Positions 6,781 through 61,015 of a stretch of 64,000 nucleotides of DNA are shown here, piece by piece (the stretch's first letter is position 1; the number at the start of each line of letters is the position of its first letter). This DNA comes from a virus. Its lineage: Duplodnaviria > Caudoviricetes. The position numbers were made by a program, and so were the translations under genes. The notes under the pieces were generated by a model. It made no database searches. It saw nothing but the letters and a program-made list of their open reading frames with translations, and was not told the DNA's origin. Location: IMG/VR virus record IMGVR_UViG_3300010429_002123, one strand, 5' to 3'.

Positions 6781-6918
6781 ACAAAAAGGATTTTTGTTAC
6801 CACAAAAAGGATTTTTGATAAAGCAAAAAGGATTTTTGATAAAGCAAAAAGGATTTTTGATAAAGCAAAAAGGATTTTTGATAAAGCAAAAAGGATTTTT
6901 GTTATCACAAAAAGGAGG
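6781..6918 (+). repeat. 21-bp tandem repeat (6 units, CAAAAA-GGA-TTTTTG hairpins) ending in the udk RBS
   Basis: GGA at 6788, 6809, 6830, 6851, 6872, 6893, then GGAGG at 6914. Confidence 0.9.
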
Positions 6919-6925
6919 AAAACAT

Positions 6926-7537: not shown

Positions 7538-7597
7538 GTTGCTTACAGATTTGAAAACTAAAAAGACATGAGTTGATATGTATTTGAAAGAATCAGC

Positions 7598-7672
7598 ACG
7601 AAAAGGATTTTCGTTACCACGAAAAGGATTTTCGTTACCACGAAAAGGATTTTTGTTATCACAAAAAGGAGG
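7598..7672 (+). repeat. 21-bp GGA-loop hairpin repeat (3 units) ending in RBS
   Basis: ACGAAAA-GGA-TTTTCGT units, a compensatory variant of the 6781 repeat. Confidence 0.85.
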
Positions 7673-7681
7673 AAAAATAAC

Positions 7682-7885
7682 ATGATTACGAACAAAAAAC
7701 CTTTAAACTATGCCTACATAAATGTCTCTGAAGGGAAAACCAGACAGTGCCAGCATTGCAAATTCTACAACTCTAATGCTACAGGAAGACAGGTAAGCTG
7801 TCAAAAACTGAAAGTTCAGGTGTCTGGACTTGACTGCTGTAAGTTCTTTTTTAACTACTTTCAAAAAATACACGGGCTTAACTAA
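7682..7885 (+). CDS. small Cys-rich protein, HiPIP-like pattern
   Basis: Y...QCQHCKF...C...V....CC..F spacing; strong RBS. Confidence 0.4.
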   Translation: MITNKKPLNYAYINVSEGKTRQCQHCKFYNSNATGRQVSCQKLKVQVSGLDCCKFFFNYFQKIHGLN

Positions 7886-7927
7886 AGTAAAACTTCTTCT
7901 ATACCAAAAATAATAAGTCAAAATCTT

Positions 7928-7962
7928 TAAGAGTGTGACGTATGGTGTCACACTCTTATTTT
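7928..7962 (+). terminator. probable intrinsic terminator
   Basis: TAAGAGTGTGAC...GTCACACTCTTA followed by TTTT. Confidence 0.6.
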
Positions 7963-8060
7963 ATACTTAAAAAGACATGAGTTGATATGTAATTTGAAAG
8001 ACTTAGAAATAAAAAGTCCTCCCAGAGTAACGGACAAAAAACCCTGGAGAAGGGAACTAA

Positions 8061-8453
8061 ATGAAAAAATTACTCAATGTTACAAGTCACAATCTCACTG
8101 AAGACCAGAAAAAAGCTGTCGGAGACTCTATTTGTGTTGATATGCCCGCTGAAGTAAAGGGAAAATGGGGGCAGGTTCCTGTAGACGGTGATATTAATAG
8201 TGTAAAAGCCCATGTTCAGCCCGTAATCGACTGGATTCTGGCAGAAAATACCGGTGAAACTACTGCTCTTATTGCCGGAGCTTTCTCCGCTTCTTTTCTT
8301 GTGATGGAAGTTTGCTGGGCGTCCGGGATAAAAACTGTAGAGGCTACTACTAAAAGAAAAGTAATAGAAGAAACTATGCCTGATGGTTCTGTAAAAAAGA
8401 CTTCTGTTTTTGAGTTTGTCCAATTCAGAGAAATAAGGTCATTAATTTCCTAA
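8061..8453 (+). CDS. Csx20-like protein (putative cyclic oligoadenylate ring nuclease)
   Basis: SHNLTEDQ, KWGQVP, LIAG, ATTKRKVIEE..DGSVKKTSVFEFVQFR match the Csx20 pattern as recalled. Confidence 0.65.
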   Translation: MKKLLNVTSHNLTEDQKKAVGDSICVDMPAEVKGKWGQVPVDGDINSVKAHVQPVIDWILAENTGETTALIAGAFSASFLVMEVCWASGIKTVEATTKRKVIEETMPDGSVKKTSVFEFVQFREIRSLIS

Positions 8454-8598
8454 GTGTCAAAATAAGCTCAAAAACCTATCTAGAAACGGGGCAACTTCGA
8501 TTTAAGGGAAAAGGGTGCCCCGTTCTTTTTGCTGTGTTTCTGAAGCCTCCTGGAGGCCATAATGACGTTTTAGTTTATGAGATAGAAAGGAGAATATT

Positions 8599-9609
8599 AT
8601 GTATTACAGAAAAAATCACACGAGGCACACCTTTAAAGTTAAGCCTGGAGAAAACTGGGAAGTATCCCTAGTCCAATCGGGAAAATGCCCGGAGGCAAAA
8701 GAGGGAATGGAGATTGCTTTTAAGGCTTTTCTATGGGCAGAGAAAGAAAGTATGTTGACTATACCTGAAGTGTCCCTCTTTACAGACAGGGAACTTTATG
8801 TGGGAAGAAGTGGCTGTAGAGATTACTGTGTGTATAAAAAAGTGACCGTATGGTATGAAGAGTTGCCGGGAACAACTGTAATCAGGGAGTGCAGAACTCC
8901 AAGAACGAAAATACCTGTTCTCTATGTGAGCATGAAAGACAAGTTAAATAGCGGTTTTAGTATTACTCCCGAAACTTTCTGGGAAGCTGTCAGAATATAC
9001 GGAAAAGACTTCTGTGGCCAGAAAAAAGAAGAAGACGAGACGGAAGAGGAGTTTGTAAAAAGGGTATGGGAAGACTTTCGGTGTTTTATCTCAGAAGAAG
9101 ACTTGGACTTTCTGCCAGTGGAAGACGTCGGGAAAGAACTAAACATAGGGTGCCGTAAAGTAAAAGTCTCCCCGGATTTCTCTTTCTTCCTGTGGGAAAA
9201 CGAAAACAGGATACACAAAATACATATAGGAGAGAGTTATACCTTCTTCAAACAAGAAGCTCAACTGGTCACAAGTTATTTAGGTAAGATAAAAGAGGCT
9301 TTTGCAAGTCTGGGTATACTAGTAGAAGAAATATATAGGTCCGAAGAAGACGTTATCAGACTGCTATTTCTAAAAACCGGAGAATGTTACAACCTTGATG
9401 AGTTTCGTTACTGGTTAGACGCTGAAAAACTATCGGTACAAAACACAGAAACGGGAAAACTCAGCGAGTTCTATTACGACAAATGCTATTCTGTAGATGA
9501 AGATTACCTGAGAGTTTTATGCCGAATGATAAAAGACGAGGAATTTCAGATGGTGAGCTCCCCTGAAGAGGGTGTTAAAGGGAAGATAAGTTTTATCAGA
9601 AGTAATTAG
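8599..9609 (+). CDS. hypothetical protein, paralog of 9751
   Basis: shared FLxWAE, TPETFW and SPDFSFFLW motifs. Confidence 0.65.
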   Translation: MYYRKNHTRHTFKVKPGENWEVSLVQSGKCPEAKEGMEIAFKAFLWAEKESMLTIPEVSLFTDRELYVGRSGCRDYCVYKKVTVWYEELPGTTVIRECRTPRTKIPVLYVSMKDKLNSGFSITPETFWEAVRIYGKDFCGQKKEEDETEEEFVKRVWEDFRCFISEEDLDFLPVEDVGKELNIGCRKVKVSPDFSFFLWENENRIHKIHIGESYTFFKQEAQLVTSYLGKIKEAFASLGILVEEIYRSEEDVIRLLFLKTGECYNLDEFRYWLDAEKLSVQNTETGKLSEFYYDKCYSVDEDYLRVLCRMIKDEEFQMVSSPEEGVKGKISFIRSN

Positions 9610-9640
9610 GGGTCTTATTCTCTGTCTGTATGCTATACAC

Positions 9641-9661
9641 TTTTTACAAAAAGTATTGACG
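9641..9661 (+). promoter_or_regulatory. conserved phage promoter (TTTTTACAAAAAGTA-TTGAC), first of about 12 copies
   Basis: copies at 9641, 10630, 18016, 18850, 37349, 49662, 51131, 56971, 61944; variants at 48348, about 54549 and 59296; usually followed 17-18 bp later by TATACT/TATAAT-like -10. Confidence 0.8.
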
Positions 9662-9750
9662 TGTAACGTGGGATATGCTAGTATACAGACAGAGAAAGGA
9701 TTTCTATTACTATGGAAAGGATTTCTATTACTATGGAAAGGAAAAAAACC

Positions 9751-10608
9751 ATGAAAGAATACTACGAAAACAAAAACTGGGTCTTTTGTCTGGAGACAGA
9801 GGAAGAAACCTGGGGGGCTACTTTCTATCTGGAAAAACCCGTCACTGTAAAGACAGGGGTGACAAGACTTCTGGAATTTCTCTTCTGGGCGGAGCGTACA
9901 AAAAAGATAGTTCTCCCGAAAGAAAAACCGGAACTTAAAATAAGCAAAGTTCTTACTGATAATGGTAGAAAAATTGACTATTATAGTCTGGAAAAATCCA
10001 AACCACAGTATCAGCGTGTCCTGGAAACCCTGGTAATAAGAGAGAAAAAACCAGAAAAAACTATAAAAAAACCACTCTTCTTCGTTGAGAAACCCACGGC
10101 AGAATCAAACGGAATAACGACAAGTCTGTCCGTCACCCCGGAGACTTTCTGGGGAGTCGTTTATGCCTGCGAGGGAGTTTTGTGTAAGGTCAGGGAGTTT
10201 ACTCCCGTGAAAAACCTCGCTGTTGAAATACCTGTAGGGTGTTCAAAGATATTTATGTCCCCGGATTTCTCTTTCTTCCTGTGGGGAGGAGCCAAAAAAA
10301 TTCATGAGGTTAAGATGGGCAGTCCTTACCTGTTTAAGGGACAGGACGCTTCACTCCTGATAAACTCCCTGCTTAAAATAAAAAAGACCTTGCTTCATTA
10401 TGGAATTGTCACAGAAAAAGTCTCGACTGTAATAGGGGGCGAAGAAGAGATATGTCTAACTTTTCATCACAGGCCGAAGGCCGTGGCTGACTCGAAAACT
10501 GTTAGGAAAGCTCTTTTAGGAGACGAGGAAGAAGGGTGGTCTGATGAAGAGGGCACGCCACACCTTCCTACACTTGATTCTGTCTTTAGTTCTGATTACT
10601 CCCTCTGA
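9751..10608 (+). CDS. hypothetical protein, paralog of 8599
   Basis: shared motifs; preceded by two GGA hairpin units. Confidence 0.65.
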   Translation: MKEYYENKNWVFCLETEEETWGATFYLEKPVTVKTGVTRLLEFLFWAERTKKIVLPKEKPELKISKVLTDNGRKIDYYSLEKSKPQYQRVLETLVIREKKPEKTIKKPLFFVEKPTAESNGITTSLSVTPETFWGVVYACEGVLCKVREFTPVKNLAVEIPVGCSKIFMSPDFSFFLWGGAKKIHEVKMGSPYLFKGQDASLLINSLLKIKKTLLHYGIVTEKVSTVIGGEEEICLTFHHRPKAVADSKTVRKALLGDEEEGWSDEEGTPHLPTLDSVFSSDYSL

Positions 10609-10721
10609 CCAAAAAACTTTGTTAACTAATTTTTACAAAAAGTATTGACAACTTGAATTCTCCGTAGTATACTAGGAGTATAGAAAGCAGGCGAAAAATC
10701 TGTCACTGAGGAGGAAAAAAC

Positions 10722-10934
10722 GTGAGAAAGAATCTAGAGGAAACCTGGGAGAACTTCACCGAAGACGAAGACTCTCTCAGGAAAGAAGCAGAGTCTGAGG
10801 CAAAGTATGAGGCTGAAAGGAAAGCATCGGGGTGTCCGGGTTATGAAGAGTGTGAAGACCCGGATTGCAAATATTGCAACGCCGACTACAATTCCGAGAT
10901 GATGGAAATCACCTCGGACTGGAACTGGAGGTAA
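10722..10934 (+). CDS. small acidic Cys-containing protein
   Basis: GAGGAGG RBS, GTG start, directly behind a conserved promoter. Confidence 0.55.
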   Translation: MRKNLEETWENFTEDEDSLRKEAESEAKYEAERKASGCPGYEECEDPDCKYCNADYNSEMMEITSDWNWR

Positions 10935-11129
10935 GGCGTATGCTTCACAAGAGGCCGTGTAAGTGTAAGAGATGTCATGAAAGAAAAATACGAAACAGAT
11001 TCTTTGGCCACCTGTTAAAAGCCTGTTTCTTACTTTTACAAGCCCTATGGGTCAAAAGAAAAAAGTCTCAAAGAGGAGGAGGTATTACCCGGCAGATTGT
11101 CTCTATCAGGATGAATGAGGAGGAGAAAA

Positions 11130-11921
11130 ATGCAAAAGAAAATAGCCTTCGGGTGGTACGGAGGAAAATTTAGTCATCTAGCGTGGCTACTTCCTCTGCT
11201 ACCACCCTCTACTCATTATTGTGAACCTTTCGGAGGTTCTGGTGCTGTCATTATAAACAAGAGTCCATCCCCCGTCGAAACTTACAACGACCTTGACAGC
11301 GAGGTAGTAAATTTCTTTCGAGTTCTCCGAGAACAAGCTGACGAACTTATTAAGTTGATAAGTCTCACCCCCTTTTCTCGGGAAGAGTTTAAAAACTCGC
11401 TAAAGTCCGAGTACCCGTCGAACGTGGAGAGGGCGAGAAACTTCTATGTAAGAGCAAGACAGGTTAGAACCGGGTTAGTACAAAAAGCCAGTGAGGGGAG
11501 GTGGGCACATCATAAACTGACCAGTCGGAAAAATATGGCCGGGGGAGTATCAAGATGGCTTGGGTCTTTACCCGGTTTAGTAGCAATTTCCGAGCGGTTA
11601 CTTCGAGTACAAATAGAACATGCACCAGCAGTAGAAGTAATTAGAAGATATGACAGCAACGAAACACTGTTTTACTGTGACCCTCCTTACCCACACGAGT
11701 CCAGAAAGGACTCCAAAGCCTATTTTTTCGAAATGTTTGAAAAAGACCACAGGGACCTGGCTGAAGTCTTGTCAAAAGTCGAAGGAAAAGTTGCTCTGTC
11801 TGGGTACAGGTGTGATTTACTTCTTTCCCTATACAAAGGCTGGAAAATACACGAAGCTCCTGTCAAAAAGTGTCCCTCTGTAAAGAAAGACCGACAGGAG
11901 CTCCTATGGACAAACTATTAG
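11130..11921 (+). CDS. DNA adenine methyltransferase (Dam/D12 class)
   Basis: WYGGK, EPFGGSG, YNDLD, YCDPPY, ELLWTNY. Confidence 0.92.
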   Translation: MQKKIAFGWYGGKFSHLAWLLPLLPPSTHYCEPFGGSGAVIINKSPSPVETYNDLDSEVVNFFRVLREQADELIKLISLTPFSREEFKNSLKSEYPSNVERARNFYVRARQVRTGLVQKASEGRWAHHKLTSRKNMAGGVSRWLGSLPGLVAISERLLRVQIEHAPAVEVIRRYDSNETLFYCDPPYPHESRKDSKAYFFEMFEKDHRDLAEVLSKVEGKVALSGYRCDLLLSLYKGWKIHEAPVKKCPSVKKDRQELLWTNY

Positions 11922-12016
11922 TTCTGTTACTAAATGTTTGCTGAGAAATTATCCAGTAATTTCCTAGAAAAGAAAGACTCTGGACTTGTCTCCAGAGTCT
12001 TTTTGATTCTCTTCGC

Positions 12017-12307
12017 TTAGGGTGTGAGAAGGCACCCTGGTAAACTGTCGGTATAAAATACCTCGCCTGTGTCTCTAAACTCCACATCACACCGGGATAG
12101 AACCTCCCTAAACTCCTCTAAGGCTTTAATAAAACCATGTCTTTCCGCGTATTCCTCGGCGGACTTAAGGGGCTGGGGGGCTAGAGCCCTCTTAATTTTA
12201 CCATCAATCATTGTTACAAGGTTACTTTTAAACCTGCTCAGTTTCTCTCCGCAACATCGTGGTATCTGTTTTGTGTATTTAGAAACGGGTGTTGGTGTGT
12301 GAGACAT
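12017..12307 (-). CDS. hypothetical protein
   Basis: 96-aa ORF directly downstream of 12326-14278 on the same strand. Confidence 0.45.
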   Translation of the reverse strand: MSHTPTPVSKYTKQIPRCCGEKLSRFKSNLVTMIDGKIKRALAPQPLKSAEEYAERHGFIKALEEFREVLSRCDVEFRDTGEVFYTDSLPGCLLTP

Positions 12308-12325
12308 GACTGTATCCCCTTCCGT

Positions 12326-14278
12326 TTAAAGAGCATCAAAGTTTATATCACAGAGCATATATCTTCTCTTTTTGAACTTCACAGACCAGCTACTACCGTG
12401 TACGTGCAGAGTAAAGGGCTTTTCAAAAACCTCAGGGTTGGAAAAGTCTACTTGAGAACACAGGAAGTCTTCCAACAAGGGGAGGCTCTCTCTGGACAGG
12501 CGGTTCATTTCTACGATTTCCTGCCCCATATCAACTTTTATCATGTAGGTCATGAGCTTATCGTAATGTTCTTTATAAGGGAACATTGTTTGAAGTTCCT
12601 GCTTTGAGTGCTTCCCCTGCAGGAGCTTTATCACCTGGAAGGGAAGAATTTCCGGCATGGCTTTTCTGAGTTCCTCAAGGTTCTCCGCTGGTAGTTTCCA
12701 GTTAGAAACCACTTTTAACTTGGACACTACGTCATGCTGAGGAACTGTCTGGGTTTTAAGTTCCAGCTCCTTTGCTATGGCTATTACAAGTCTGTTGTGG
12801 GGTTGCCCGGAAACTCCATGATAGAGGCCAAGTCTTCCAGCGACTGTGTAGGCGTTCAGCCATTCATTAGTAACGGGTAGCACTATTGGAAGGTCTACTC
12901 CTATCTGAGAGTATAAATATTGTTTCACAAAAAGGATATTTTCTTTGTCCATACCCGTTTCTTCAAGGTTTAATGAGGAGATGGCTCTTGTAACAGAGTT
13001 AAGACACTCTGCTCTTTCCTGCACAGTAAGTTTACTTTTCCATGCGAGAGCAGTTTCCTGTCCTCTTCTCTTGAATTCTTCTGCCAGCATTCTTGTGGGG
13101 ACATACTTGTCAGCCAGGTATCTTCGGATAGCTTTTCCGAGGGTTCCCTTTGACCACAAAAAATAGGCATTCACTCCGGCCAGGGAGAAAACGGTTAGCT
13201 GAGGTGAAAAAATAACTGTATTTAAAAGAGAGGCAGAGGTTGTAGATTTAAACTCCACAGCCTTTTTAAATTCAGCCAGGTCTTCGCCACGCAAGGTTCT
13301 GTAATCATGATTTTCGAGAGCCTCACCGCTGGAGATAAAGTTTGACACCGAGCTTCTGGGAAAAGCGACTTCTCCGAGGGCGGCTATGTGACTTCCTACC
13401 CACCAATCAGTTTCTTGAAAACGAATCGGAGAAAGTTCTGCCGGGTCAAACGGAAGAGTCCCCACAGGTTGCAGACTTGTCTGAGGGGTAGGCTCAGGAC
13501 TTTCCTGAATTGGATTTTCAGGTGTTTTAGGTTCTTCTTTAGGTTCAGTTTTTTCTTCTACTTTAGGTTCTGCGGGAAGTTCTACTTTAGGCTCTGCGGG
13601 AAGTTCTACTTTAGGCTCTGCCTCTATCGGTTGTTCCGTCTGGACTTCTTCACGGACTTCTGGGGTTACTGCCTTCCTTTGGACAAGCATTTCGGCCAGA
13701 CTCAGGGAGGGAGCCTCCTGTTCTTTAACAGGGGGTTTGTCTTCTTTTGCCTTCTTTAACTTACGCTGGGCTGACTTTGACTTTGCAAACTTTGTAAAGT
13801 CCTCACCTAAAATGTCGTTTAGTTTTTCCAATGTGCCGAAAGAGGGGACAATATCTTTATCAAGCCAGGCAGTCACAGCCTGCGGGGTAAACTCCAGTTC
13901 AAAAGCTACAAACTGGGGACTTAAATTCAGCTTCTTCATTGCTCTTCTGAGGGTTGAGGCAAAAAGAGTTTCACCTTTTCTTTCGGTGTAGTAAGTTTCT
14001 ACAGGCACTCTGGTTGAAAACCAGTTCTTTTTGTAAAACTCTCTTTCCGGGACTTCGAGAGCTTCAGAAATTATCTTTACCGTACCTCCCGTAGGAAGTA
14101 TGTCACCCTTTAAGTATTGCTTCATAGTGGAGTCAGAGACATCACACTTTATAGCCAGACTTCTCATCACCATCGAGTGAGTTTCCATGTAAAATTCCAA
14201 TAAATAAGGGAATGTGGTTATAGGTTCATACCATTCCCCCGGCTTTTTTGTCATGTTTTCCATTACTACGTTCTCCAT
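12326..14278 (-). CDS. multi-domain regulator: two XRE-type HTH domains, Pro/Glu-rich linker, antirepressor-like C-terminus
   Basis: LAIKCDVSDSTMKQYLKG..P and VAFELEFTPQAVTAWL...P HTH patterns; AEPKVELP repeats. Confidence 0.6.
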   Translation of the reverse strand: MENVVMENMTKKPGEWYEPITTFPYLLEFYMETHSMVMRSLAIKCDVSDSTMKQYLKGDILPTGGTVKIISEALEVPEREFYKKNWFSTRVPVETYYTERKGETLFASTLRRAMKKLNLSPQFVAFELEFTPQAVTAWLDKDIVPSFGTLEKLNDILGEDFTKFAKSKSAQRKLKKAKEDKPPVKEQEAPSLSLAEMLVQRKAVTPEVREEVQTEQPIEAEPKVELPAEPKVELPAEPKVEEKTEPKEEPKTPENPIQESPEPTPQTSLQPVGTLPFDPAELSPIRFQETDWWVGSHIAALGEVAFPRSSVSNFISSGEALENHDYRTLRGEDLAEFKKAVEFKSTTSASLLNTVIFSPQLTVFSLAGVNAYFLWSKGTLGKAIRRYLADKYVPTRMLAEEFKRRGQETALAWKSKLTVQERAECLNSVTRAISSLNLEETGMDKENILFVKQYLYSQIGVDLPIVLPVTNEWLNAYTVAGRLGLYHGVSGQPHNRLVIAIAKELELKTQTVPQHDVVSKLKVVSNWKLPAENLEELRKAMPEILPFQVIKLLQGKHSKQELQTMFPYKEHYDKLMTYMIKVDMGQEIVEMNRLSRESLPLLEDFLCSQVDFSNPEVFEKPFTLHVHGSSWSVKFKKRRYMLCDINFDAL

Positions 14279-14342
14279 AATTCTCGTCCTTTCACTTCTA
14301 CAATTTTCTTTCTAACCTTTCCGATTAAAAACCGGCGATTAC

Positions 14343-14504
14343 CTTTCCATCTAAACATGTTTCTTCGGAAACCTGGTCTGGAATTTTGTGACCCTCTATT
14401 ATACTTGCTTTACCTCTAACCATGTTTCTTCGGAAACGCAGTAAGGCTGTTTGGTTCATTCAAGGACATCACCGCTTCCCATCTAACCATGTTTCTTCGG
14501 AAAC
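14343..14504 (-). CRISPR. orphan CRISPR mini-array: 3 x 30-bp repeats, 2 spacers (35 and 37 bp)
   Basis: repeats at 14343-14372, 14408-14437, 14475-14504; minus-strand form GTTTCCGAAGAAACATGGTTAGATGG(G/A)AAG with a few variants. Confidence 0.8.
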
Positions 14505-14647
14505 CAGTTAGTTTGGCTTAATGACTCACTTTCTATAAGCTGAAAGTTTTGTAAGCCCTGACCCAGAAACTTCTAAAAAGAAGTTGACTCCAAGTCCACG
14601 ACTGGATTTATCGTGATTCTCACCTTTACGTCGGTGATTATGTTTAC

Positions 14648-14676
14648 ATGTTAGCATGCCACATCGAAGATGTCAA
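14648..14676 (-). promoter_or_regulatory. leftward promoter facing the mini-array and HTH gene
   Basis: minus strand TTGACA-17 bp-TAACAT with extended TG. Confidence 0.55.
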
Positions 14677-14771
14677 GCCAATTTATAAAAAACCTATTGA
14701 AAGATGCTTAAATTTATGCTACACTAAGGTAATGACAAATAAAAAAGACAGAAAAGAACGGAGTTTCACCC

Positions 14772-15593
14772 ATGCAAGAACCCTTAAAAGAAAAATCTAA
14801 AGTACAAAAGTTTGAAATACAGCAAATAAACAGAGCGGATATAAAAAACGCTCCTTATAACCCTAGAAAAATATCAAAACATGCCAAGAGAAAACTAAAA
14901 GATAACCTCGAAAGAGTGGGTCTCTTAGAACCCGTGGTAATAAACAAAAACACAGGAAACCTTGTGTCAGGTCATCAACGCCTGGCGTGTATAGATATAA
15001 TAGAAGGTTCCCCCGGATACTCTCTGGACGTCAGTCTGGTTAATCTAACCGAGCAGGAAGAAAAAGAGCAAAACATCTTCTTTAATAATACCTTTGTCAT
15101 GGGAGACTGGGACTTAGAAGTGCTCTCTACCATGTTCAAAGACCCGGACTTTTCTATAGAAAAAACTGGATTTGACAAACTGGACTTGCAGATTGTCTTT
15201 CCCGAACTTGTGCCCACAGAACAAAATCTGTTCGCCACGGAAAATATGCCGGAGGAGACAAAGGAAGACTTAAAAGAAATATCTCGTATGAAAGAGGAAA
15301 GAAAAAAGCACAAAGAAAAAGTAAGAAAAAGAGACGACACAGAGTTTTATCTGGTGGCTGTCTTTGCGAGCAGAGAGAGAAAAGAAGAGTTTCTGATGAG
15401 TATAGACTATGACCCAACTATGAAGTATGTTGACGGAGAGATTTTGTTCACCGCTGTAGACCCGATGGTAAAAGCTGAAAGACTCTCCGAACAAAAAGAG
15501 ACTGACAGAAAAATGACACAGGAACAGTACGAAGCACTTGTTAACTCCGTCGAAGAACCTGCGAGAGAAGAAGCAACAGTTGAAGAGTATTAG
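14772..15593 (+). CDS. ParB/Srx-like nuclease domain protein
   Basis: APYNPRKI, GLLEPVVINKNTGNLVSGHQRL, GDWD. Confidence 0.85.
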   Translation: MQEPLKEKSKVQKFEIQQINRADIKNAPYNPRKISKHAKRKLKDNLERVGLLEPVVINKNTGNLVSGHQRLACIDIIEGSPGYSLDVSLVNLTEQEEKEQNIFFNNTFVMGDWDLEVLSTMFKDPDFSIEKTGFDKLDLQIVFPELVPTEQNLFATENMPEETKEDLKEISRMKEERKKHKEKVRKRDDTEFYLVAVFASRERKEEFLMSIDYDPTMKYVDGEILFTAVDPMVKAERLSEQKETDRKMTQEQYEALVNSVEEPAREEATVEEY

Positions 15594-15610
15594 AGAGAGG
15601 TGTATTACCT

Positions 15611-15934
15611 ATGAAACCTGTAGGGGAACTCAAGGCTCCAGCCGGAAAAAACACAAGACATCTATTTAATAACAGAATCTGGACAGGAATAAACTTCCAG
15701 GTAAACTGTGACCCTAAAAGTTATGATGAAAAAATAGTTCTCATTTACGGTTTAGAGGATACTCAGTTCTCTTCTTCTCTTTTCCGGGCACTCTCCGAAA
15801 TGAAAGAAGACAGTTTATTTATAGCTGTAAGCAGAAGAAAAACGTGGGACGTGTATAAGATAGACAGGTTCGAGTTTTCCCCCGACGGACAGCACATAGT
15901 CTTAAGGGGAAAACTCGCCAACTGGGATTTATAA
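15611..15934 (+). CDS. hypothetical protein (weak paralog of 23922)
   Basis: GAGGTG RBS; similar NN...YD...LIY...FIAV...W pattern. Confidence 0.5.
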   Translation: MKPVGELKAPAGKNTRHLFNNRIWTGINFQVNCDPKSYDEKIVLIYGLEDTQFSSSLFRALSEMKEDSLFIAVSRRKTWDVYKIDRFEFSPDGQHIVLRGKLANWDL

Positions 15935-15936
15935 AT

Positions 15937-16254
15937 TCAGGAAAAAGATGTCTCTGTAATGACTGGGGTAGTCATGGGAAGAAGGTCTTTCGGTCTGAAA
16001 TTCCAACAGTCCAGGTGGTCTTCTTCTGTTCCTATACGTAAGTCATCAAACAGGACTTTAATGGGATAACTAAAACCTTTCGTAACCTCCTGCACGGTGC
16101 CAAGTTCGTTGTTAAAAAAGACAAAATCTACCATGTGTGAGATAACCATTACTCTTGTTCCCACGGGAAACATATCTACCGTGTTGTTAACTGTCTCGTA
16201 TTTCTTTCTGTCAAGTTCACTCGCCTCTCCCAGACTTATACTTTTCTTACTCAT
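15937..16254 (-). CDS. hypothetical protein, possibly SH3-like
   Basis: FPVGTRV...GTV...YPIKVLFDD pattern; GAGAGGAGG RBS. Confidence 0.45.
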   Translation of the reverse strand: MSKKSISLGEASELDRKKYETVNNTVDMFPVGTRVMVISHMVDFVFFNNELGTVQEVTKGFSYPIKVLFDDLRIGTEEDHLDCWNFRPKDLLPMTTPVITETSFS

Positions 16255-16255
16255 G

Positions 16256-16642
16256 TTATACCTCCTCTCTTTCCGGGGGGATTGGCCATATCTTTGGAAT
16301 ACCACCCCCACAGGAAAATGCAGAATCTTCAGTGGGTTCTGCTAACCCTTTTTTATTACGCCCAAGATACTCTTTTCTAAACTTAATAAAATAAATATTA
16401 GAGGCTTGCTTACCTCCCACCCTACGATGTCTTGTCAGAAGGTATCCCTTCTCTTCCAGAGACTTAAGGATTTTTAAAAGGGTTGTCTTTGACATTTTGA
16501 ACATTTCTGCGTAAGATTTCAAGTTTGGGGGTTTGCAGACACCCTTTTCATTATAAGAAAAAAGAGAGGTCATCACACCCACCTCCTCAAGGGTTAAACC
16601 CCCCTCTGCTAAGCTATTAGGTACGTAAAAAACATCTTTCAT
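16256..16642 (-). CDS. winged-helix protein of phage replication-initiator N-terminal type (HTH_36-like)
   Basis: FYVPN, MSKTTLLKILKSLEEKGYL, SNIY; AGGAGG RBS. Confidence 0.75.
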   Translation of the reverse strand: MKDVFYVPNSLAEGGLTLEEVGVMTSLFSYNEKGVCKPPNLKSYAEMFKMSKTTLLKILKSLEEKGYLLTRHRRVGGKQASNIYFIKFRKEYLGRNKKGLAEPTEDSAFSCGGGIPKIWPIPPEREEV

Positions 16643-16658
16643 GCGTATGTTCCTCCTT

Positions 16659-17219
16659 CTAAAATTCATTTTCGTTTTCTATTACGATTTCTTCGGCAGT
16701 CTTTGGGAGGTCAAATCTGTTTTTTATTATAGAAATAGTATAGGCTATTTTATCCCGTATGCCTCTCCGTTTGTTACGAGGGTCGCCGAGGGTTATCTTA
16801 AAAGCCTGTTCAAGCACTTCCTGGGGGGAAGTTTCCGGGTATAACTTTTTGTATTTAACGGCTGTATTATATAAGGTTCGAAACTCGCTTTCCTTCAAAT
16901 GTTTCTGAAGAAACTCTGAGGGGGTTGGGTATATGGTGCTTTCCCAGTCCAGTATCGTATACTTATTAGAAGTTTGTCTCCCTCTTACCCATCTTTTCTC
17001 TGCTTGAATGTATCCTTTCTTTTCGAGGGAATGTAAAATTGCTCTTAGCTTGCGTTCACTTATGAACAACTCTTCGCTGAGAGTTTCTATTTTTGGCCAG
17101 CAGTATTTTTTGTTTCTGGAGTAAGTATAGAGAGACAACATTACCAAGATTTCAAAAGGGAGCAGGTCTTTCTTTCTATTTTTGCTCAGACTATTAGGCA
17201 CGATGGTAAAATCTTTCAA
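16659..17219 (-). CDS. replication-initiator-like winged-helix protein (HTH_36-like)
   Basis: FTIVPN, CWPKIETLSEEL.ISERKLRAILHSLEKKGYI, SNKY. Confidence 0.8.
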   Translation of the reverse strand: MKDFTIVPNSLSKNRKKDLLPFEILVMLSLYTYSRNKKYCWPKIETLSEELFISERKLRAILHSLEKKGYIQAEKRWVRGRQTSNKYTILDWESTIYPTPSEFLQKHLKESEFRTLYNTAVKYKKLYPETSPQEVLEQAFKITLGDPRNKRRGIRDKIAYTISIIKNRFDLPKTAEEIVIENENEF

Positions 17220-17453
17220 ATATTCTCACCTCGCTTGACAAGTCCCGCTTGGTATGTTACCTTATAGGTGTTATTTAAAGCTCTCTGCCTCTGGGCTTCT
17301 AGCTCTTTGGCCGAGAGTTTCTATTTTTTAAAACTTGTCATTTTTTTATAGTCTACTTCAAAACAATCCTCTTGTCAATAACCCACAATAAAGAGATTAC
17401 CGTGCTTTTCGCTTTATCTTCAAAACCGAGCAAGTGCCTGCATCCAAAGAAAA

Positions 17454-17813
17454 TATAGACTGCATATCGTGCAGTCTATAAAAACCCGTAAGTAGCGGGG
17501 CTAACCTTGCTTTTTTCTCCCCCATTTTCAAAAATAGACTGCACGCCGTGCAGTCTATAAGAATGGCGGTATATATAGGTTTTCCTTCTTTTTAGGGCTT
17601 TTTTAGCCTATTATAGACTGCATATCGTGCAGTCTATAATGCCATTATAGACTGCATATCGTGCAGTCTATATGTCAAAATAGACTGCATATCGTGCAGT
17701 CTATAAAAAGTAAAAAGTAAAAAATGTTTTGTAAAAATTAGTAAAGAGAAACCGTTACGGTGTAAGGAGAAGAACTCTCTTTTTATAAAAATATAGACTG
17801 CACGCTGTGCACC
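17454..17813. repeat. six palindromic TATAGACTGCA-N5-TGCAGTCTATA sites (iteron/operator-like)
   Basis: copies at 17454, 17534, 17612, 17646, 17680 and a degenerate one at 17792. Confidence 0.9.
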
Positions 17814-18100
17814 CTAAGGATAATTAAAAAGAATAAATGAAAAAGATTCTAAAAAGAAGCAATGATAATTGAATAAAACATTGATTCAAGAATAAGAACA
17901 CATTGTGAGAGGGGGGAAAATTTTTTTCGGGAACCCGATACCCACCCCGTGCCCCCGCATAAGGGTAGGGGAGCAACTCGCGTCAAATGCTGGAGGTGCT
18001 GACAAAGTTAACTTATTTTTACAAAAAGTATTGACATTTACAAAACACTGTAGTATACTGATTGTAGTGAAAGAAACAAAACTGAATGGAGGAACGTAAA

Positions 18101-18313
18101 ATGTTTGAAGAAGAAAGAGAAAATAGATTTAAAGATGAGAGAACCTGTGCGTGTGGTCTTCCCACACGCAAAAGGGAAGAATACACCAATCACCTGGTGG
18201 GAAAAACCGAACACACCGGCCTCTATGAGTGTCAGTGTGGCCAGACCACCGTGGTAACTGAAACTTTAGACGCGACAAGAGAAAGAAAGGTCTCTGTAGA
18301 GACCATAGAATAA
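18101..18313 (+). CDS. small Zn-ribbon protein
   Basis: CACG...CQCG; GGAGG RBS; behind conserved promoter 18016. Confidence 0.6.
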   Translation: MFEEERENRFKDERTCACGLPTRKREEYTNHLVGKTEHTGLYECQCGQTTVVTETLDATRERKVSVETIE

Positions 18314-18377
18314 AAAGAAGGGCTTTCGCCCTTTCTTAGTTTGGAGGAAAAAACATGAATAAAAGGGGGAAATGTAA

Positions 18378-18845
18378 ATGAGATACTTCGCAAAGTTTGA
18401 ACTCGGAACAGAGAACGTCCTTTCTGAAATGGGAGGACAATTTGAAATAGTGGCAGAAACCGCCACGTGTGTTGTGTTCGACCTTGAAAACGAAATGTCA
18501 GGTCTGCAGGAACAGAATCTTAACGCAAAAGCTGGAGTTCTGGAATACGGGCAGAACCCGGACGAGATTACTCTTTACTTCAACCTTGATGAAAAGGCTG
18601 AGGAACCATCAGAAGTAACAGGGAGTGAGGACTTCTCAAGTGAAGACCTGATAGAAAGAGGTGTGTGGTCTCAAGAAGACAGGGCTTATAAAGTTCTGTT
18701 CACCCGTGAGCCTGACTTTTTCTGTGAGTGCGGAGGATTTTCCTATGGTTGGGGCGCCTCAATGTGTCCGGTGTGCTTTTCAAAAAATCTTCTCCGTGAC
18801 TCCAGGATAAAGAACTTCTGGTTTGAAGGGCTACAAAATATATAG
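18378..18845 (+). CDS. hypothetical acidic protein with C-terminal Zn ribbon
   Basis: CECG...CPVC; AAGGGG RBS. Confidence 0.55.
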   Translation: MRYFAKFELGTENVLSEMGGQFEIVAETATCVVFDLENEMSGLQEQNLNAKAGVLEYGQNPDEITLYFNLDEKAEEPSEVTGSEDFSSEDLIERGVWSQEDRAYKVLFTREPDFFCECGGFSYGWGASMCPVCFSKNLLRDSRIKNFWFEGLQNI

Positions 18846-18973
18846 CCATTTTTTACAAAAAGTATTGACAACTGCTACCCACACGTGGTATAATATAAAA
18901 AGTGAAAGAAACAAAAAGGATTTTTGTTGACACAAAAAGGATTTTTGTTGACACAAAAAGGAGGAGAACGTAT

Positions 18974-20113
18974 ATGGAGGAGACATTCACAGCTACAACG
19001 GAGAAGGGTGAGGAGGAACTCACCCGGCAATTAGGAGAGGCCAAAGAGCCTCGATACACCCCCAGAAATATATTCGAATTCCAAGAGGGAGAAAAAATAG
19101 CAGGTATGAACTCCCTTATGGAACTGGCAAAAAATTACACAACCGATTGCAAAGACATTACTATCCCGGCAGATTCACTCCGGGTTATGACGACAGAGGA
19201 TAACAAACTTCTCATAACAGACACTTTCCCAGAAGAAGAAACTCAGGTTATGTCCAGCCTGAGTAGATGGTCTTTAGACCAGCTCTGTAACCGCTACGGA
19301 ATTCCGGTAAGATACATGAGAAAATGTATGCTGGCAAAAAGACTTGACCTATTAAAAGGAAACATAAATGGCTGGCTATCGAGGGATACAAAACCAGTAT
19401 TTCTCCGTTCCTACAGAGACAGAGTAAGAGGGTTTCTTTCCTCGAAATTCGTCCCGTTCGACAGTATAGACGTTCTGAACTGCCTGCAGGAATTACCCCA
19501 AATTCCTTACCAGAGGTTTTCTGTGCAGGCCAGCTATCTTGATGAAGAAAGAATAAACCTTCGTCTGGTAGATGTGGTTCCTCTGAACCTGGAAAACGAC
19601 AAATTATATGTAGGGCTGAACATAAGAGACAGTGACGTGGGAAAGTCAAGTTTTGAGGCGGGTATCTATATTTTCAGACTGGTGTGTCAGAATGGCCTTA
19701 TGACTAAAAACAGTGAGGGTTACTGCTGGACACGAAAACACGTGGGGCTAAGTCGGGAAATGTTCTTTGAAAACCTCGGCAGAATAGTAACTAATATGAA
19801 TCAGGTAAGGCATATAATAGAATATCACTACAAAAACCTTCAAAAACCAATAACCAAAATCGAGATGTCTGACCTGATTACCGGAGCTATACAAAAGCTG
19901 GAACTCGCTGAAGAAAAAGCCTTCGAGATAGAAACCTTAACAGAAGAGAAATACACTGTAAGTACATACGGATTTATAAATGCTCTTACAGAGATAGCTC
20001 AGACCTACGCTATCGAAAAAAGAGAAAGGATAGAGACTTACGCCGGGACATTCTTGCCGATGTCTGCCCCGGAAAAACCAGAGGAGGAACTTGTGTATGA
20101 AATGGTAAGCTAA
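18974..20113 (+). CDS. DUF932-family protein
   Basis: LDQLC, VRGFLSSKF, IRDSDVGKSS, FRLVCQNGL, RKHVG motifs. Confidence 0.75.
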   Translation: MEETFTATTEKGEEELTRQLGEAKEPRYTPRNIFEFQEGEKIAGMNSLMELAKNYTTDCKDITIPADSLRVMTTEDNKLLITDTFPEEETQVMSSLSRWSLDQLCNRYGIPVRYMRKCMLAKRLDLLKGNINGWLSRDTKPVFLRSYRDRVRGFLSSKFVPFDSIDVLNCLQELPQIPYQRFSVQASYLDEERINLRLVDVVPLNLENDKLYVGLNIRDSDVGKSSFEAGIYIFRLVCQNGLMTKNSEGYCWTRKHVGLSREMFFENLGRIVTNMNQVRHIIEYHYKNLQKPITKIEMSDLITGAIQKLELAEEKAFEIETLTEEKYTVSTYGFINALTEIAQTYAIEKRERIETYAGTFLPMSAPEKPEEELVYEMVS

Positions 20114-20123
20114 TAAAAAACAA

Positions 20124-20158
20124 AAGAAGGGTTACCTACAGCAGGTAACCCTCTTCTT
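20124..20158 (+). terminator. stem-loop/terminator
   Basis: AAGAAGGGTTACCT...AGGTAACCCTCTTCTT. Confidence 0.55.
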
Positions 20159-20179
20159 ATTAAGGAGTGTGCCTACGTT

Positions 20180-20683
20180 ATGGATACAGAAAATCCTATG
20201 AGCTCGCGGGTTATAGACGGGCGAAAAAGAAAGGAAATGAAAAAGAAGGGAAAACCTCCGGTCTTTGACAAAGAAAAACTAAAGAAGTTTCTTTTAGACC
20301 TTGACTCTTTCTTTGAAACCCACAGAGACGTTCTTCTTGATAACAACGGAAGGTTTTCTTTTAAAATAAGAGGTTTAAAAAACTGCGGGTTTACCCACAT
20401 AAACAACCCGGAGGACGTCTGTGACCTTGTAGAGATGACAGTGGAAAATTACTTTGATGAAATTCATATCTCTTATTATTACACCTCAAGGGGTGACAAA
20501 AAGAAAATAAGGTATCACAATTACATAGATGAGTCTTTAAAGGAGATATGCTTTCTGGAAGGGGGAGGAATAACTGACAAAAAAACCCGAACCCAAAAGG
20601 AAGGTTCGACAAACGAAGACCTAAAAAAAGAGGTGGATAAACTCATAGACTCATGTTACAGGGTTTCTTCAGAACCCTTTTGA
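20180..20683 (+). CDS. hypothetical protein
   Basis: 167-aa ORF, AAGGAG upstream. Confidence 0.5.
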   Translation: MDTENPMSSRVIDGRKRKEMKKKGKPPVFDKEKLKKFLLDLDSFFETHRDVLLDNNGRFSFKIRGLKNCGFTHINNPEDVCDLVEMTVENYFDEIHISYYYTSRGDKKKIRYHNYIDESLKEICFLEGGGITDKKTRTQKEGSTNEDLKKEVDKLIDSCYRVSSEPF

Positions 20684-20706
20684 CAAAAAGAAAGAGAGGA
20701 AATATT

Positions 20707-21879
20707 ATGGCGAGAGACAAATCCAAAAAACTGGAAGAGTTCATACAGACCCTAAGGGTCTCTTCCTTTACCGTGGAAGAACTGCTGGCCTACCCGGAAG
20801 TAAAAAAGATAGGTCTTGTGAGGGGAAGTGTCATACACCTTCTTACTTCCCTGATGAAGAAGGGCATTATTTCAAAAAGTCCTATGCGGGCTACGGACGG
20901 AGAAGGAAGGAAAAGAACTCTGACTTACTTAATACGAAGAGAGAGAGAAGAGAAAGAGGAGAGAGAAGAGAAAGAGGAGAGAGAAGAGAGAGAAGTAACC
21001 GACGAACCCCTGCAGACTGAGGAAGAAAAAACAGATTCTATGGTTTCTTACAGCGGATACTTGCTTGGCCAGGAGTTTAATGAATCTTCATTAAAATCTC
21101 TGAAAGAACTTGCTGGCAACTTTAATGAGGGTGTGAAAGAGGCCACAAAAAACTTTTGTGAGAAAGAAAAGAAAGATACATTGCTATTTCCCCCGTCTTC
21201 TGTCTCCTTTGGAGGAAGTTCCGGGCTCTTACAGCAACTCGGAGAAGCCTTAGAGGAGATAGTAAAAAGGGAAAGCAATGCTCTTCTTACCTCTGCCGAG
21301 CGTGTTCACGCCTATGAAATAGGGTGTGTAAAGGAAGACTTAAAAAGTAAAGAAGAAGAGTTACTGGCTTTAAAAACAGAGTTAGAGAAACTGAAAAACT
21401 CTCTGTCTCTCTCAGAGGAGAAGACAAAACTAACAGAGGCTGGTTACACTGATGTCGAGGAAGTTCTTTCTGCCCTGAGGAAAAACCGGGAGGAAAATCT
21501 TTCTCTATCAGCGGAGAAAGACAAACTTCTGGCTGAGATAAAAAAGATGGTTGACCTGGGAAAACAAACCGCCGAAGGCTGGGAAGAAGCGGAGAGTTCT
21601 CGGAAGTCTATTAAACTTACCCTTAAGAGTCTCGAAAAAGAAAAAACAAAACTTCAGAAAGAACTTGACGAAGCAAAAAACCTTTTACAAAAAAGTCAAG
21701 AAGAGATAAAAACTATGAAGAATGACAGGTTGGCTCTTATTGCGAAAAAACAGAAGGACGTCGCCACGGTCGAATTTGTAACTAAAAATAACTTTAAAAT
21801 CGAGATGGAAAAGATTACTACATATTACGAAGAGAAAATCAGAGTTCTTCAAAAAACTCTGGAAGAACGGGGGAGGTAG
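20707..21879 (+). CDS. winged-helix plus long coiled-coil protein
   Basis: FTVEEL...GSVIHLLTSLMKKGII N-terminus; EEKEER repeats. Confidence 0.55.
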   Translation: MARDKSKKLEEFIQTLRVSSFTVEELLAYPEVKKIGLVRGSVIHLLTSLMKKGIISKSPMRATDGEGRKRTLTYLIRREREEKEEREEKEEREEREVTDEPLQTEEEKTDSMVSYSGYLLGQEFNESSLKSLKELAGNFNEGVKEATKNFCEKEKKDTLLFPPSSVSFGGSSGLLQQLGEALEEIVKRESNALLTSAERVHAYEIGCVKEDLKSKEEELLALKTELEKLKNSLSLSEEKTKLTEAGYTDVEEVLSALRKNREENLSLSAEKDKLLAEIKKMVDLGKQTAEGWEEAESSRKSIKLTLKSLEKEKTKLQKELDEAKNLLQKSQEEIKTMKNDRLALIAKKQKDVATVEFVTKNNFKIEMEKITTYYEEKIRVLQKTLEERGR

Positions 21880-21882
21880 AAA

Positions 21883-23606: not shown

Positions 23607-23630
23607 AATGTCACCTAAGATTTTATTTAA

Positions 23631-61010: not shown

Positions 61011-61015
61011 AACGT

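What the first reader, a model, noticed from the sequence alone, without database searches (positions are those of the whole stretch)
14343..14676. Second, unrelated CRISPR element: cas-less mini-array with its own promoter
Seen: three 30-bp repeats and two spacers; on the minus strand a promoter and about 135 nt of leader precede them. One repeat ends ATGGAAAG, like class 1 crRNA handles. One spacer (CAAGTATAATAGAGGGTCAC...) contains a perfect TATAAT. The repeat differs from the IscB array. Established: viral mini-arrays co-opt host Cascade against competitors, and crRNA-like RNAs can repress promoters or act as RNA anti-CRISPRs. Inference: hijack of a host type I/III system, possibly guiding it to a promoter.
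Basis: partly seen in the sequence, partly recalled or inferred. Interest (0 to 1): 0.7.

Follow-up and report, generated by a model that had tools for sequence, protein, structure and literature searches.

The report
Phage TnpB-type guide RNA cassette
The three repeats are real, but they are the tail of one of at least ten scattered guide-RNA cassettes that a large phage most likely feeds to its own transposon-derived (TnpB/Cas12-like) DNA cutter, not an array that borrows the host's CRISPR machinery.

Summary
Observation confirmed. There are three 30-nt repeats (14343-14372, 14408-14437, 14475-14504, minus strand) and spacers of 35 and 37 nt. A TTGACA-17-TAACAT promoter sits at 14676-14648, followed by a 137-nt leader.

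The host type I/III hijack reading is not supported. The leader is a structured RNA scaffold. It recurs, with 17 compensatory base pairs, in nine other intergenic cassettes of the same phage, each fused to its own mini-array. The first repeat is the 3' hairpin of that scaffold.

Two cassettes flank a 765-aa TnpB-family gene 66 kb upstream. That protein hits NCBIfam guided_TnpB, has its RuvC D-E-D residues aligned to Cas12n, and gives fold hits only to Cas12f, TnpB and TranC. Its closest homologues elsewhere are each followed by a scaffold plus an array of the same 66-68 bp period. One of these arrays carries different spacers in different samples.

No host CRISPR array with this repeat was found, and no protospacer for either spacer.

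Best reading (about 0.8): a guide cassette for the phage's own TranC-like nuclease. It is unusual in being dispersed and cis-fused to a full scaffold.

The scan had already described this cassette system on neighbouring windows of the same genome. I re-tested its main claims here.

The parts
14648..14676 (-). Sigma-70-type promoter of the cassette (TTGACA, 17 nt, TAACAT, TG-extended -10)
   Evidence: The promoter scan gives 10 of 12 matches. The block AAATTGGCTTGACA is shared with the cassette directly upstream of the TnpB-like gene (L014, about 1660-1700).
14505..14641 (-). It has helices around the AAAUCCA loop, a two-tier hairpin, a GGCUUA/UAAGCC helix with an inner CUUUC/GAAAG stem, and a CUAAC anti-repeat at its 3' end.
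   Evidence: Fold z -4.3. Covariance model R1 scores 198 bits, E 4.5e-50, over 14475-14650. On 10 paralogous copies 97.4% of cells pair and 17 pairs show changes on both sides, against 1-4 in slid controls.
14475..14504 (-). Repeat 1. It holds an internal hairpin GUUUC/GAAAC, and its GUUAG pairs with the scaffold's CUAAC (helix 8). It is therefore the 3' end of the scaffold.
14438..14474 (-). Spacer 1 (37 nt). It is the candidate guide used in cis with the fused scaffold.
   Evidence: No protospacer was found.
14408..14437 (-). Repeat 2 (ends AGAGGTAAAG). It has no cis anti-repeat upstream.
14373..14407 (-). Spacer 2 (35 nt). It contains TATAAT at 14403-14398.
   Evidence: No protospacer was found. 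The promoter scan does not call a promoter here.
14343..14372 (-). Repeat 3 (ends ATGGAAAG)
14308..14332 (-). Possible degenerate fourth repeat (GTTTTTAATCGGAAAGGTTAGAAAG), 10 nt after repeat 3. A similar tail (CCGGTTTTTCGGAAAG...) follows the cassette upstream of the TnpB-like gene.
   Evidence: Seen by eye. Not tested statistically.
12326..14278 (-). Context: a co-directional 650-aa double-HTH / antirepressor-like gene that starts 64 nt after repeat 3. It is probably read through from the cassette promoter, because no terminator-like site was found between them.
   Evidence: The other cassettes also end 65 nt or less before a co-directional start codon.

Best explanation
The feature is one member of a family of at least ten paralogous guide-RNA cassettes in a large phage, and the only one on the minus strand. 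Each cassette is a roughly 146-nt structured scaffold descended from a TnpB omegaRNA (reRNA). The scaffold's 3'-terminal hairpin is the first 'repeat', and one to four further repeat-spacer units follow. The cassette at 14343-14676 is transcribed from its own sigma-70 promoter. Inferred: the phage's 765-aa TnpB-derived RuvC nuclease, encoded 66 kb upstream, binds the scaffold and uses spacer 1 in cis, as in a natural single-guide RNA. The later repeat-spacer units lack a cis anti-repeat. They would be used with a scaffold supplied in trans, tracrRNA-like. The resulting complex would cut DNA complementary to the spacers next to a short flanking motif. Likely targets are competing phages, mobile elements or host defence loci. 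Shown: the family, its RNA structure, the fusion of the first repeat to the scaffold, the presence and intact catalytic residues of the nuclease, and the same gene-scaffold-array layout in that nuclease's relatives. Inferred: binding, processing, cleavage and the targets.
For: (1) Model R1, built from four copies, finds 10 full-length scaffolds at E 1e-35 to 1e-51. They lie in the window and in loci L009 and L014, taken from the contig that overlaps the window's first 6.8 kb at 100% identity. (2) On these 10 copies 97.4% of cells pair and 17 pairs change on both sides, against 1-4 in slid controls. No shuffle of 500 reached the observed values. (3) In all 10 cassettes the first repeat is preceded by CTAAC (CTAGC in two copies), which pairs with the repeat's GTTAG. 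None of the 20 later repeats has this, yet they are as conserved as the first repeats and keep the internal hairpin in 94 of 100 pairs. (4) Cassettes lie 149 nt upstream and 48 nt downstream of the 765-aa gene L014:2033-4330. (5) That protein hits NCBIfam guided_TnpB at E 1.8e-14. Its family profile hits PDB 9j09 (Cas12n), with D435, E551 and D646 aligned to the RuvC D/E/D residues. Its model's top 50 fold hits are all Cas12f, TnpB, Cas12m, LaTranC and similar, with E down to 1e-11. (6) Homologues P0007 and P0008 (37% identity, E 5e-46) are followed about 190-210 nt after the stop by arrays of 33-34-nt repeats ending GAGGCAAAG, with a 66-68 bp period. Two samples encoding the identical P0008 carry entirely different spacers. 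(7) This cassette shares its promoter block and its tail with the cassette beside the nuclease gene. (8) The window holds no other TnpB-like gene.
Against: The effector lies 66 kb away on the other strand, so the link rests on family membership, not adjacency. No protospacer was found for either spacer of this cassette, nor for three spacers of other cassettes. Targeting and the flanking motif are therefore unknown. R1 does not detect the scaffolds of the homologues or of the IS605 relative, so RNA homology beyond this phage rests on layout and short motifs seen by eye. The cis anti-repeat is only 5 bp, which is weak for trans pairing with later repeats. The three repeats of this cassette differ from each other in their last 8 nt. 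No expression data exist. The nuclease model is of moderate quality (pLDDT 64, TM 0.2-0.4).
Confidence: 0.8

Rival explanations
1. One reading: a cas-less viral mini-array, or an RNA anti-CRISPR, whose repeats mimic a host type I or III array. Host Cas6 and Cascade or Csm/Cmr would then process and load its RNAs.
For: It has two spacers, no adjacent cas gene and its own promoter. The repeat is 30 nt, starts GTTTC and ends ATGGAAAG. Phormidium arrays share the GTTTC-N4-GAAAC stem and an ATGGAAAC end.
Against: A scan of one genome each from 185,579 species for two spaced copies of the repeat's 14-mer found only Phormidium arrays. Their 35-nt repeats agree with this one only in the stem and the last 7 nt. 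No match was found in viral or metagenome contigs, and the hits of the second metagenome scan are unrelated 66-bp tandem repeats. A conserved, covarying 146-nt scaffold fused to the first repeat is not a feature of class 1 leaders. The phage has its own matching effector family.
Confidence: 0.04
2. The scaffold-plus-repeats unit is a structured 5' UTR or RNA regulatory module for the downstream gene, or it serves another unidentified protein. It would then not be a guide for the TnpB-like nuclease.
For: All cassettes end 65 nt or less before a co-directional start codon, and no terminator-like site separates this one from the 650-aa HTH gene. No targets were found for any spacer tested.
Against: Spacers are unrelated between cassettes, while the scaffold and repeats are conserved. 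The downstream genes are unrelated to each other. Two cassettes flank the nuclease gene. Relatives of the nuclease carry the same scaffold-array layout with spacer turnover.
Confidence: 0.1
3. Only the scaffold plus spacer 1 works, as a single omegaRNA-like guide. Repeats 2 and 3 and spacer 2 are inert duplication or recombination debris.
For: Later repeats lack the cis anti-repeat. Several cassettes carry truncated 0-25-nt 'spacers'. Two cassettes share a spacer tail (CTTCTCTTGAAAGT), which points to recombination. The repeats of this cassette differ in their 3' ends.
Against: The 20 later repeats are as conserved as the first repeats and keep the hairpin in 94 of 100 pairs. Full-length spacers hold a tight 33-40 nt range. 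Arrays in the sister clade show spacer turnover.
Confidence: 0.15
4. The repeats act as DNA: iterons, operators or a centromere for the flanking double-HTH or ParB-like proteins.
For: They sit in a divergent intergenic region between an HTH gene and a ParB-like gene. The repeat holds palindromes (GTTTC-N4-GAAAC and AAACATGTTT), and the 65-67 bp spacing is about six helical turns.
Against: The same repeat family occurs in nine other intergenic sites with unrelated neighbours. It is always joined to the RNA scaffold and oriented with local transcription, and covariation preserves RNA pairs rather than DNA sequence.
Confidence: 0.02

Closest known systems
TranC (transposon-CRISPR intermediate) systems: Jin et al., Cell 2025, doi 10.1016/j.cell.2025.09.004, as cited in PMC13639567 and PMC13565253; LaTranC structure PDB 9jfq; phage-borne CauTranC9 in bioRxiv 10.64898/2026.03.27.714800
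   Same: Both have a TnpB-derived RuvC nuclease with an intact catalytic triad, short arrays without adaptation genes, and guide RNA descended from the transposon reRNA. TranC arrays hold 3-20 repeats of 32-38 bp. TranC systems also occur in phages. LaTranC is among the fold hits.
   Different: There are at least ten dispersed cassettes, not one array beside the effector. Each keeps a complete scaffold fused in cis to its first repeat, so the RNA is only partly 'split'. This cassette is 66 kb from the effector on the opposite strand, with its own promoter. The repeats are 30 nt. The effector is enlarged (765 aa), has acidic inserts and lacks the zinc-finger cysteines. Its assignment to a TranC clade was not tested.
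IS200/IS605 TnpB omegaRNA (reRNA) and TnpB-less omegaRNA copies (PATEs). Structures ISDra2 8h1j/8exa and ISFba1 8iaz. The PATE comparison is from my own knowledge of Meers et al. 2023.
   Same: Both have a scaffold followed by the guide at its 3' end. One cassette starts 48 nt after the nuclease stop codon. Multiple scaffold copies could serve one nuclease in trans. A 40%-identical homologue (P0005) sits in a classic TnpA-TnpB element, whose right end shows CTAAC...GTTAGTGAAAG by eye.
   Different: Here the scaffold end is reiterated as repeats with 33-40-nt spacers. No TnpA gene was seen near the cassettes; transposon-end hairpins were not examined. R1 does not match the IS605 right end.
Virus-borne CRISPR mini-arrays that use host Cas proteins (Saccharolobus SPV1/SPV2) and single-repeat RNA anti-CRISPRs; review PMC11656645
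   Same: Both have one or two spacers, no adjacent cas genes, and a location on a viral genome.
   Different: By definition their repeats are identical to host repeats. No host-like repeat was found here. The array is fused to a phage-specific scaffold and goes with a phage-encoded effector.
Miniature tracrRNA-dependent type V systems (Cas12f; Cas12n, PDB 9j09)
   Same: They give the best sequence-profile hit (9j09) and the best fold hits (Cas12f 8j3r). The crRNA polarity is repeat 5', spacer 3'.
   Different: Those loci have one array beside the effector and a separate tracrRNA gene, and often cas1/cas2/cas4. Here the scaffold is fused to the array and is multi-copy.

Membership tests
Viral mini-array exploiting host class 1 CRISPR-Cas | Repeat identical or nearly identical to repeats of host CRISPR arrays | tested here: not met
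   The genome-contig scan for two spaced copies of the 14-mer found only Phormidium arrays, whose repeat agrees only in the stem and the last 7 nt. Viral contigs and metagenome contigs gave no related array. Caveat: these were exact-word scans and the host is unknown.
Viral mini-array exploiting host class 1 CRISPR-Cas | Spacers match related or competing viruses | tested here: inconclusive
   No significant match in 50,697 phage records or 72,556 plasmids. No match to the first 20 nt of either spacer in IMG/VR. No match in about 120 kb of the phage itself.
Viral mini-array exploiting host class 1 CRISPR-Cas | Short array without an effector of its own in the viral genome | tested here: not met
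   The same genome encodes a TnpB/Cas12-fold nuclease flanked by cassettes of the same family.
TranC / TnpB-derived type V-like system | Effector with the TnpB/Cas12 RuvC fold and a D-E-D triad | tested here: met
   NCBIfam guided_TnpB E 1.8e-14, which is below that model's curated cut-off. The family profile against 9j09 aligns D435, E551 and D646. Foldseek hits are only TnpB/Cas12 family members.
TranC / TnpB-derived type V-like system | Repeat-spacer array whose repeat derives from the 3' part of the reRNA scaffold | tested here: met
   The first repeat is helices 8 and 9 of the covarying scaffold in all 10 cassettes.
TranC / TnpB-derived type V-like system | Array located beside the effector gene | tested here: not met
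   This cassette is about 66 kb from the gene on the other strand. Two sister cassettes do flank the gene.
TranC / TnpB-derived type V-like system | [quoted passage not shown] | tested here: inconclusive
   The first unit is unsplit (cis-fused). Later repeats lack a cis anti-repeat and would need one in trans. No RNA data exist.
TranC / TnpB-derived type V-like system | RNA-guided, motif-dependent DNA cleavage | not testable with these tools
   This needs an interference or cleavage assay.
IS200/IS605 omegaRNA / PATE | Single scaffold ending at the transposon right end, with the guide supplied by flanking DNA, plus TnpA or transposon-end hairpins | tested here: not met
   The cassettes carry reiterated repeats and spacers. 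No Y1 transposase is present in the roughly 75 kb annotated around them. R1 does not match the IS605 relative.
Rfam RNA families (including HEARO, the IscB omegaRNA) | Match to a curated covariance model | tested here: not met
   Nothing in the region reaches a gathering score, and only E of 0.2 or worse chance-level hits appear. HEARO matches only at 61630-61852.

The most novel reading that the evidence does not exclude
A jumbo phage runs a distributed guide library. At least ten natural single-guide cassettes, each extended into a mini-CRISPR array and embedded in the 5' UTRs of unrelated genes up to 66 kb from the effector, feed one enlarged TnpB-derived nuclease. The system would be caught midway through the omegaRNA-to-tracrRNA/crRNA split: the first unit is cis-fused and later units depend on a scaffold in trans. 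It operates alongside a CRISPR-associated IscB in the same genome.
Probability: 0.45. Interest if true: 0.8.

Novelty: new variant of a known kind. Interest (0 to 1): 0.62.

Why it matters
The reading changes from 'phage borrows host Cascade' to 'phage arms its own transposon-derived nuclease'. If the mechanism holds, the cassette family is a natural record of how a single-molecule TnpB guide RNA became a repeat-spacer array. The unsplit and split forms sit in one transcript. It also shows that guide genes can be scattered across a 230-kb genome instead of sitting beside the effector. That matters for type V CRISPR evolution and for annotation, since orphan mini-arrays on phages need not imply host Cas usage. 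It could also supply compact natural single-guide designs. The same phage carries an IscB with its own array and an anti-repeat-bearing omegaRNA, so both ancestral nuclease lineages can be compared in one genome.

Tried and rejected
(1) Host-array matching. The full degenerate repeat gave 0 hits in viral contigs and a 21-base core gave 0 in metagenome contigs. The two-copy 14-mer in genome contigs gave only Phormidium arrays with a different repeat, plus one 36-bp tandem repeat. The 8-kb Phormidium locus examined showed no cas genes. The two-copy 3'-half pattern in metagenome contigs gave only unrelated 66-72-bp tandem repeats with no scaffold.

(2) A scaffold pattern in viral contigs gave two chance hits that the model does not confirm.

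(3) Protospacer searches found nothing significant. Both window spacers were run against phages and plasmids, and their first 20 nt against IMG/VR. Three other spacers were run against IMG/VR, two other arrays against phages, and all 12 full-length spacers against about 120 kb of the phage itself.

(4) Rfam gave no family for the scaffold.

(5) R1 was run on the regions downstream of the homologous nucleases and on the IS605 relative, including with filters off. It found no match, probably because the model is built from near-identical copies.

(6) I looked for spacer variation of this cassette between samples. The only other full copy is identical (L029), and one assembly breaks exactly at the array (L030).

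(7) The exact 650-aa product is not on record; the gene is called 645 aa elsewhere.

(8) A pseudoknot between the scaffold 5' end and the repeat tail rests on only a 2-bp helix with one compensatory change, which happens to be in this cassette (C17-G187). That is too weak to claim.

(9) The operator/iteron and IscB-guide readings were rejected; see the rivals.

Full report
OBSERVATION. Three 30-nt repeats lie at 14343-14372, 14408-14437 and 14475-14504. On the minus strand they read GTTTCCGAAGAAACATGKTTAGAKGKRAAG, spaced 65 and 67 bp apart, and none of 100 shuffles gave a match. The spacers are 37 and 35 nt. On the minus strand the promoter scan finds TTGACA-17-TAACAT with a TG extension at 14676-14648. 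That leaves a 137-nt leader before repeat 1. Repeat 3 ends ATGGAAAG. Spacer 2 contains TATAAT (14403-14398), but no promoter is called there. The repeat is unrelated to the 37-nt repeat of the array at 61013-61493, which follows an IscB gene (RRXRR + HNH).

CONTEXT. The array sits between a minus-strand 650-aa gene and a plus-strand ParB-like gene. The 650-aa gene (12326-14278) has two HTH domains and an antirepressor-like C-terminal part. The ParB-like gene is at 14772-15593. The window is part of a large phage assembled from several ENA and Logan metagenomes at 100% identity. No whole genome is held for it.

HOST-ARRAY TEST. The degenerate full repeat is absent from viral contigs, and a 21-base core is absent from metagenome contigs. 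Two spaced copies of the 14-mer GTTTCCGAAGAAAC occur in only three arrays among the genomes of 185,579 species. All three are Phormidium arrays with a 35-nt repeat that shares only the GTTTC/GAAAC stem and a terminal ATGGAAA. A scan for two spaced copies of the 3' half returned only unrelated 66-72-bp tandem repeats. These are exact-word scans and the host is unknown, so absence is not proof.

THE CASSETTE FAMILY. Earlier notes of this scan stated that a unit at these coordinates belongs to a set of scaffold-plus-mini-array cassettes tied to a TnpB-like gene outside my window. I treated that as a lead and tested it. Walking upstream by exact-protein look-ups gave loci L009 and L014. L009 coordinates equal window + 26441, and L014 coordinates equal window + 55778. 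Three intergenic gaps in L009 hold the same leader and repeat. A covariance model built from four copies finds ten full-length copies at E 1e-35 to 1e-51. Six are in L014, three are in L009, and one is in the window at 14475-14650, the only minus-strand copy.

On the ten copies 97.4% of cells pair and 17 of 46 pairs carry changes on both sides. Slid controls gave 1-4 such pairs, and no shuffle reached the observed values. The alignment is fitted to the model, which favours the structure, but the margin is large. The 'leader' is therefore a structured RNA.

The first repeat of every cassette is part of that structure. Its GUUAG pairs with a CUAAC just upstream (helix 8), and its GUUUC/GAAAC forms the enclosed hairpin (helix 9). 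The ten cassettes hold 30 repeats and 12 full-length spacers of 33-40 nt, plus some truncated intervals. The 20 later repeats lack the upstream CUAAC but are as conserved as the first repeats.

THE EFFECTOR. L014:2033-4330 encodes a 765-aa protein, with cassettes 149 nt upstream and 48 nt downstream. It hits NCBIfam guided_TnpB at E 1.8e-14, below that model's curated cut-off. A profile of it and seven homologues hits PDB 9j09. A preprint identifies 9j09 as Cas12n (bioRxiv 10.64898/2026.03.27.714800). In that alignment D435, E551 and D646 fall on the RuvC catalytic positions, and the zinc-finger cysteines are absent. An AlphaFold model (pLDDT 64) gives only Cas12f, TnpB, Cas12m, Cas12p and LaTranC among its top fold hits, with E down to 1e-11 but low TM scores. 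The window holds no second TnpB-like gene.

RELATIVES. The closest homologues (36-43% identity over the RuvC half) include P0005, which sits in a classic TnpA-TnpB IS605 element. They also include P0007 and P0008. Those two genes are followed, about 190-210 nt after the stop, by arrays of 33-34-nt repeats ending GAGGCAAAG with a 66-68 bp period. This matches the geometry here (65-67 bp, ending GATGGAAAG). Two samples encoding the identical P0008 have nearly identical scaffolds but entirely different spacers, which is the behaviour of a real CRISPR-type array. The nuclease clade is therefore array-associated. My model does not detect those scaffolds. RNA homology across the clade thus rests on layout, on a similar order of hairpins and on short motifs.

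TARGETS. None was found for either spacer of this cassette or for the other spacers tried.

MECHANISM. Shown: the cassette has a promoter and a covarying scaffold fused to repeat 1, and it belongs to a family that surrounds a catalytically intact TnpB-family gene. Inferred: the transcript from about 14641 is bound by that nuclease. Spacer 1 acts in cis like the guide of an omegaRNA. Repeat 2 + spacer 2 would need a scaffold in trans, and its 5-bp anti-repeat is weak. The complex would cut matching foreign DNA. Because no terminator-like site follows the array, the 650-aa gene is probably read through from the cassette promoter. All cassettes end 65 nt or less before a co-directional start codon. 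This cassette shares its promoter block (AAATTGGCTTGACA) and its tail motif with the cassette next to the nuclease gene, which suggests it arose by duplication of that cassette.

RIVALS. Host class 1 hijack or RNA anti-CRISPR is disfavoured by the scaffold, the phage's own effector and the lack of any host-like repeat. DNA iterons for the flanking HTH or ParB-like proteins are disfavoured because the family recurs beside unrelated genes and preserves RNA pairs. A pure 5'-UTR role, or inert later units, cannot be excluded without RNA data.

COMPARISON AND NOVELTY. The closest known kind is TranC, the TnpB-to-Cas12 intermediates in which the reRNA is split into tracrRNA and crRNA (PMC13565253, PMC13639567). 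Phage examples are known (bioRxiv 10.64898/2026.03.27.714800). This system differs in four ways. It has many dispersed cassettes. Each keeps a full scaffold fused to the first repeat. This one lies 66 kb from the effector on the other strand. The effector is enlarged. I did not find this layout in the papers searched, though that search covers open-access text only. I rate it a new variant of a known kind. The scan had already described the system on neighbouring windows of this genome; what I add is the assignment of this particular element to it and independent re-tests.

Noticed in passing
window 59406-61852: An IscB gene (RRXRR + HNH, 534 aa) is followed at once by a 7-repeat array (61013-61493, 37-nt repeat, 69-76 bp period). 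Next comes a HEARO/omegaRNA match (61630-61852, 92.6 bits). At 61609-61655 a partial repeat is joined by AAAG to a sequence complementary to the repeat, so it looks like a natural fused repeat:anti-repeat. This appears to be a CRISPR-associated IscB in the same phage as the TnpB-type system.
   Followed up: partly
window 6812-23663: This 16.85-kb segment contains the cassette, a Dam methylase, the HTH gene, a ParB-like gene and a DnaD-like gene with iterons. It is absent from another assembly of the same phage (ERZ27257480 k141_234743, 216.8 kb) that is 100% identical on both sides. The junction falls inside 21-bp tandem repeat arrays at 6782-6916 and 23632-23698. It is either a real deletion or insertion variant, or an assembler jump across repeats.
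   Followed up: partly
window 6782-6916, 7597-7670, 9694-9742, 18911-18962, 23632-23698, 30049-30111: Tandem arrays of a 21-bp unit (CAAAAAGGATTTTTGTTACCA and variants) sit directly upstream of genes. The last unit merges into the ribosome-binding site (CAAAAAGGAGG...ATG). This may be a phage-specific regulatory repeat.
   Followed up: no
window 17447-17817: Six copies of a 33-nt unit built around the inverted repeat ATAGACTGCA-N5-TGCAGTCTAT lie upstream of a DnaD_N/HTH_36 gene (16659-17219, minus strand). The arrangement looks like an origin with iterons.
   Followed up: no
window 4266-4541 and 3528-4469: Rfam finds a group I intron (90 bits) overlapping the end of an HNH endonuclease ORF. 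Intein domains also interrupt the ribonucleotide reductase (34610-36559), the C5 methylase (41235-43232) and the 735-aa ORF (46100-48307). The genome is heavily colonised by selfish elements.
   Followed up: no
L014:4524-4575 and L009:2884-2921: Two cassettes share the spacer tail CTTCTCTTGAAAGT. One spacer is a 22-nt truncated version of the other's 38-nt spacer, which points to recombination or duplication between cassettes.
   Followed up: partly
L026:1797-2011 vs L027:1796-1939: Two metagenome contigs encode the identical TnpB-like protein P0008. Their scaffolds are nearly identical but their array spacers are completely different, so there is spacer turnover in the sister clade.
   Followed up: yes
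window 39255-39354: A perfect 42-bp tandem repeat (2.4 copies) is made of two 21-bp half-units (GTAACGCAGCGTTACTCCCCA / GTAACACAGTGTTACTCCCCA), each containing a palindrome. Its function is unknown.
   Followed up: no
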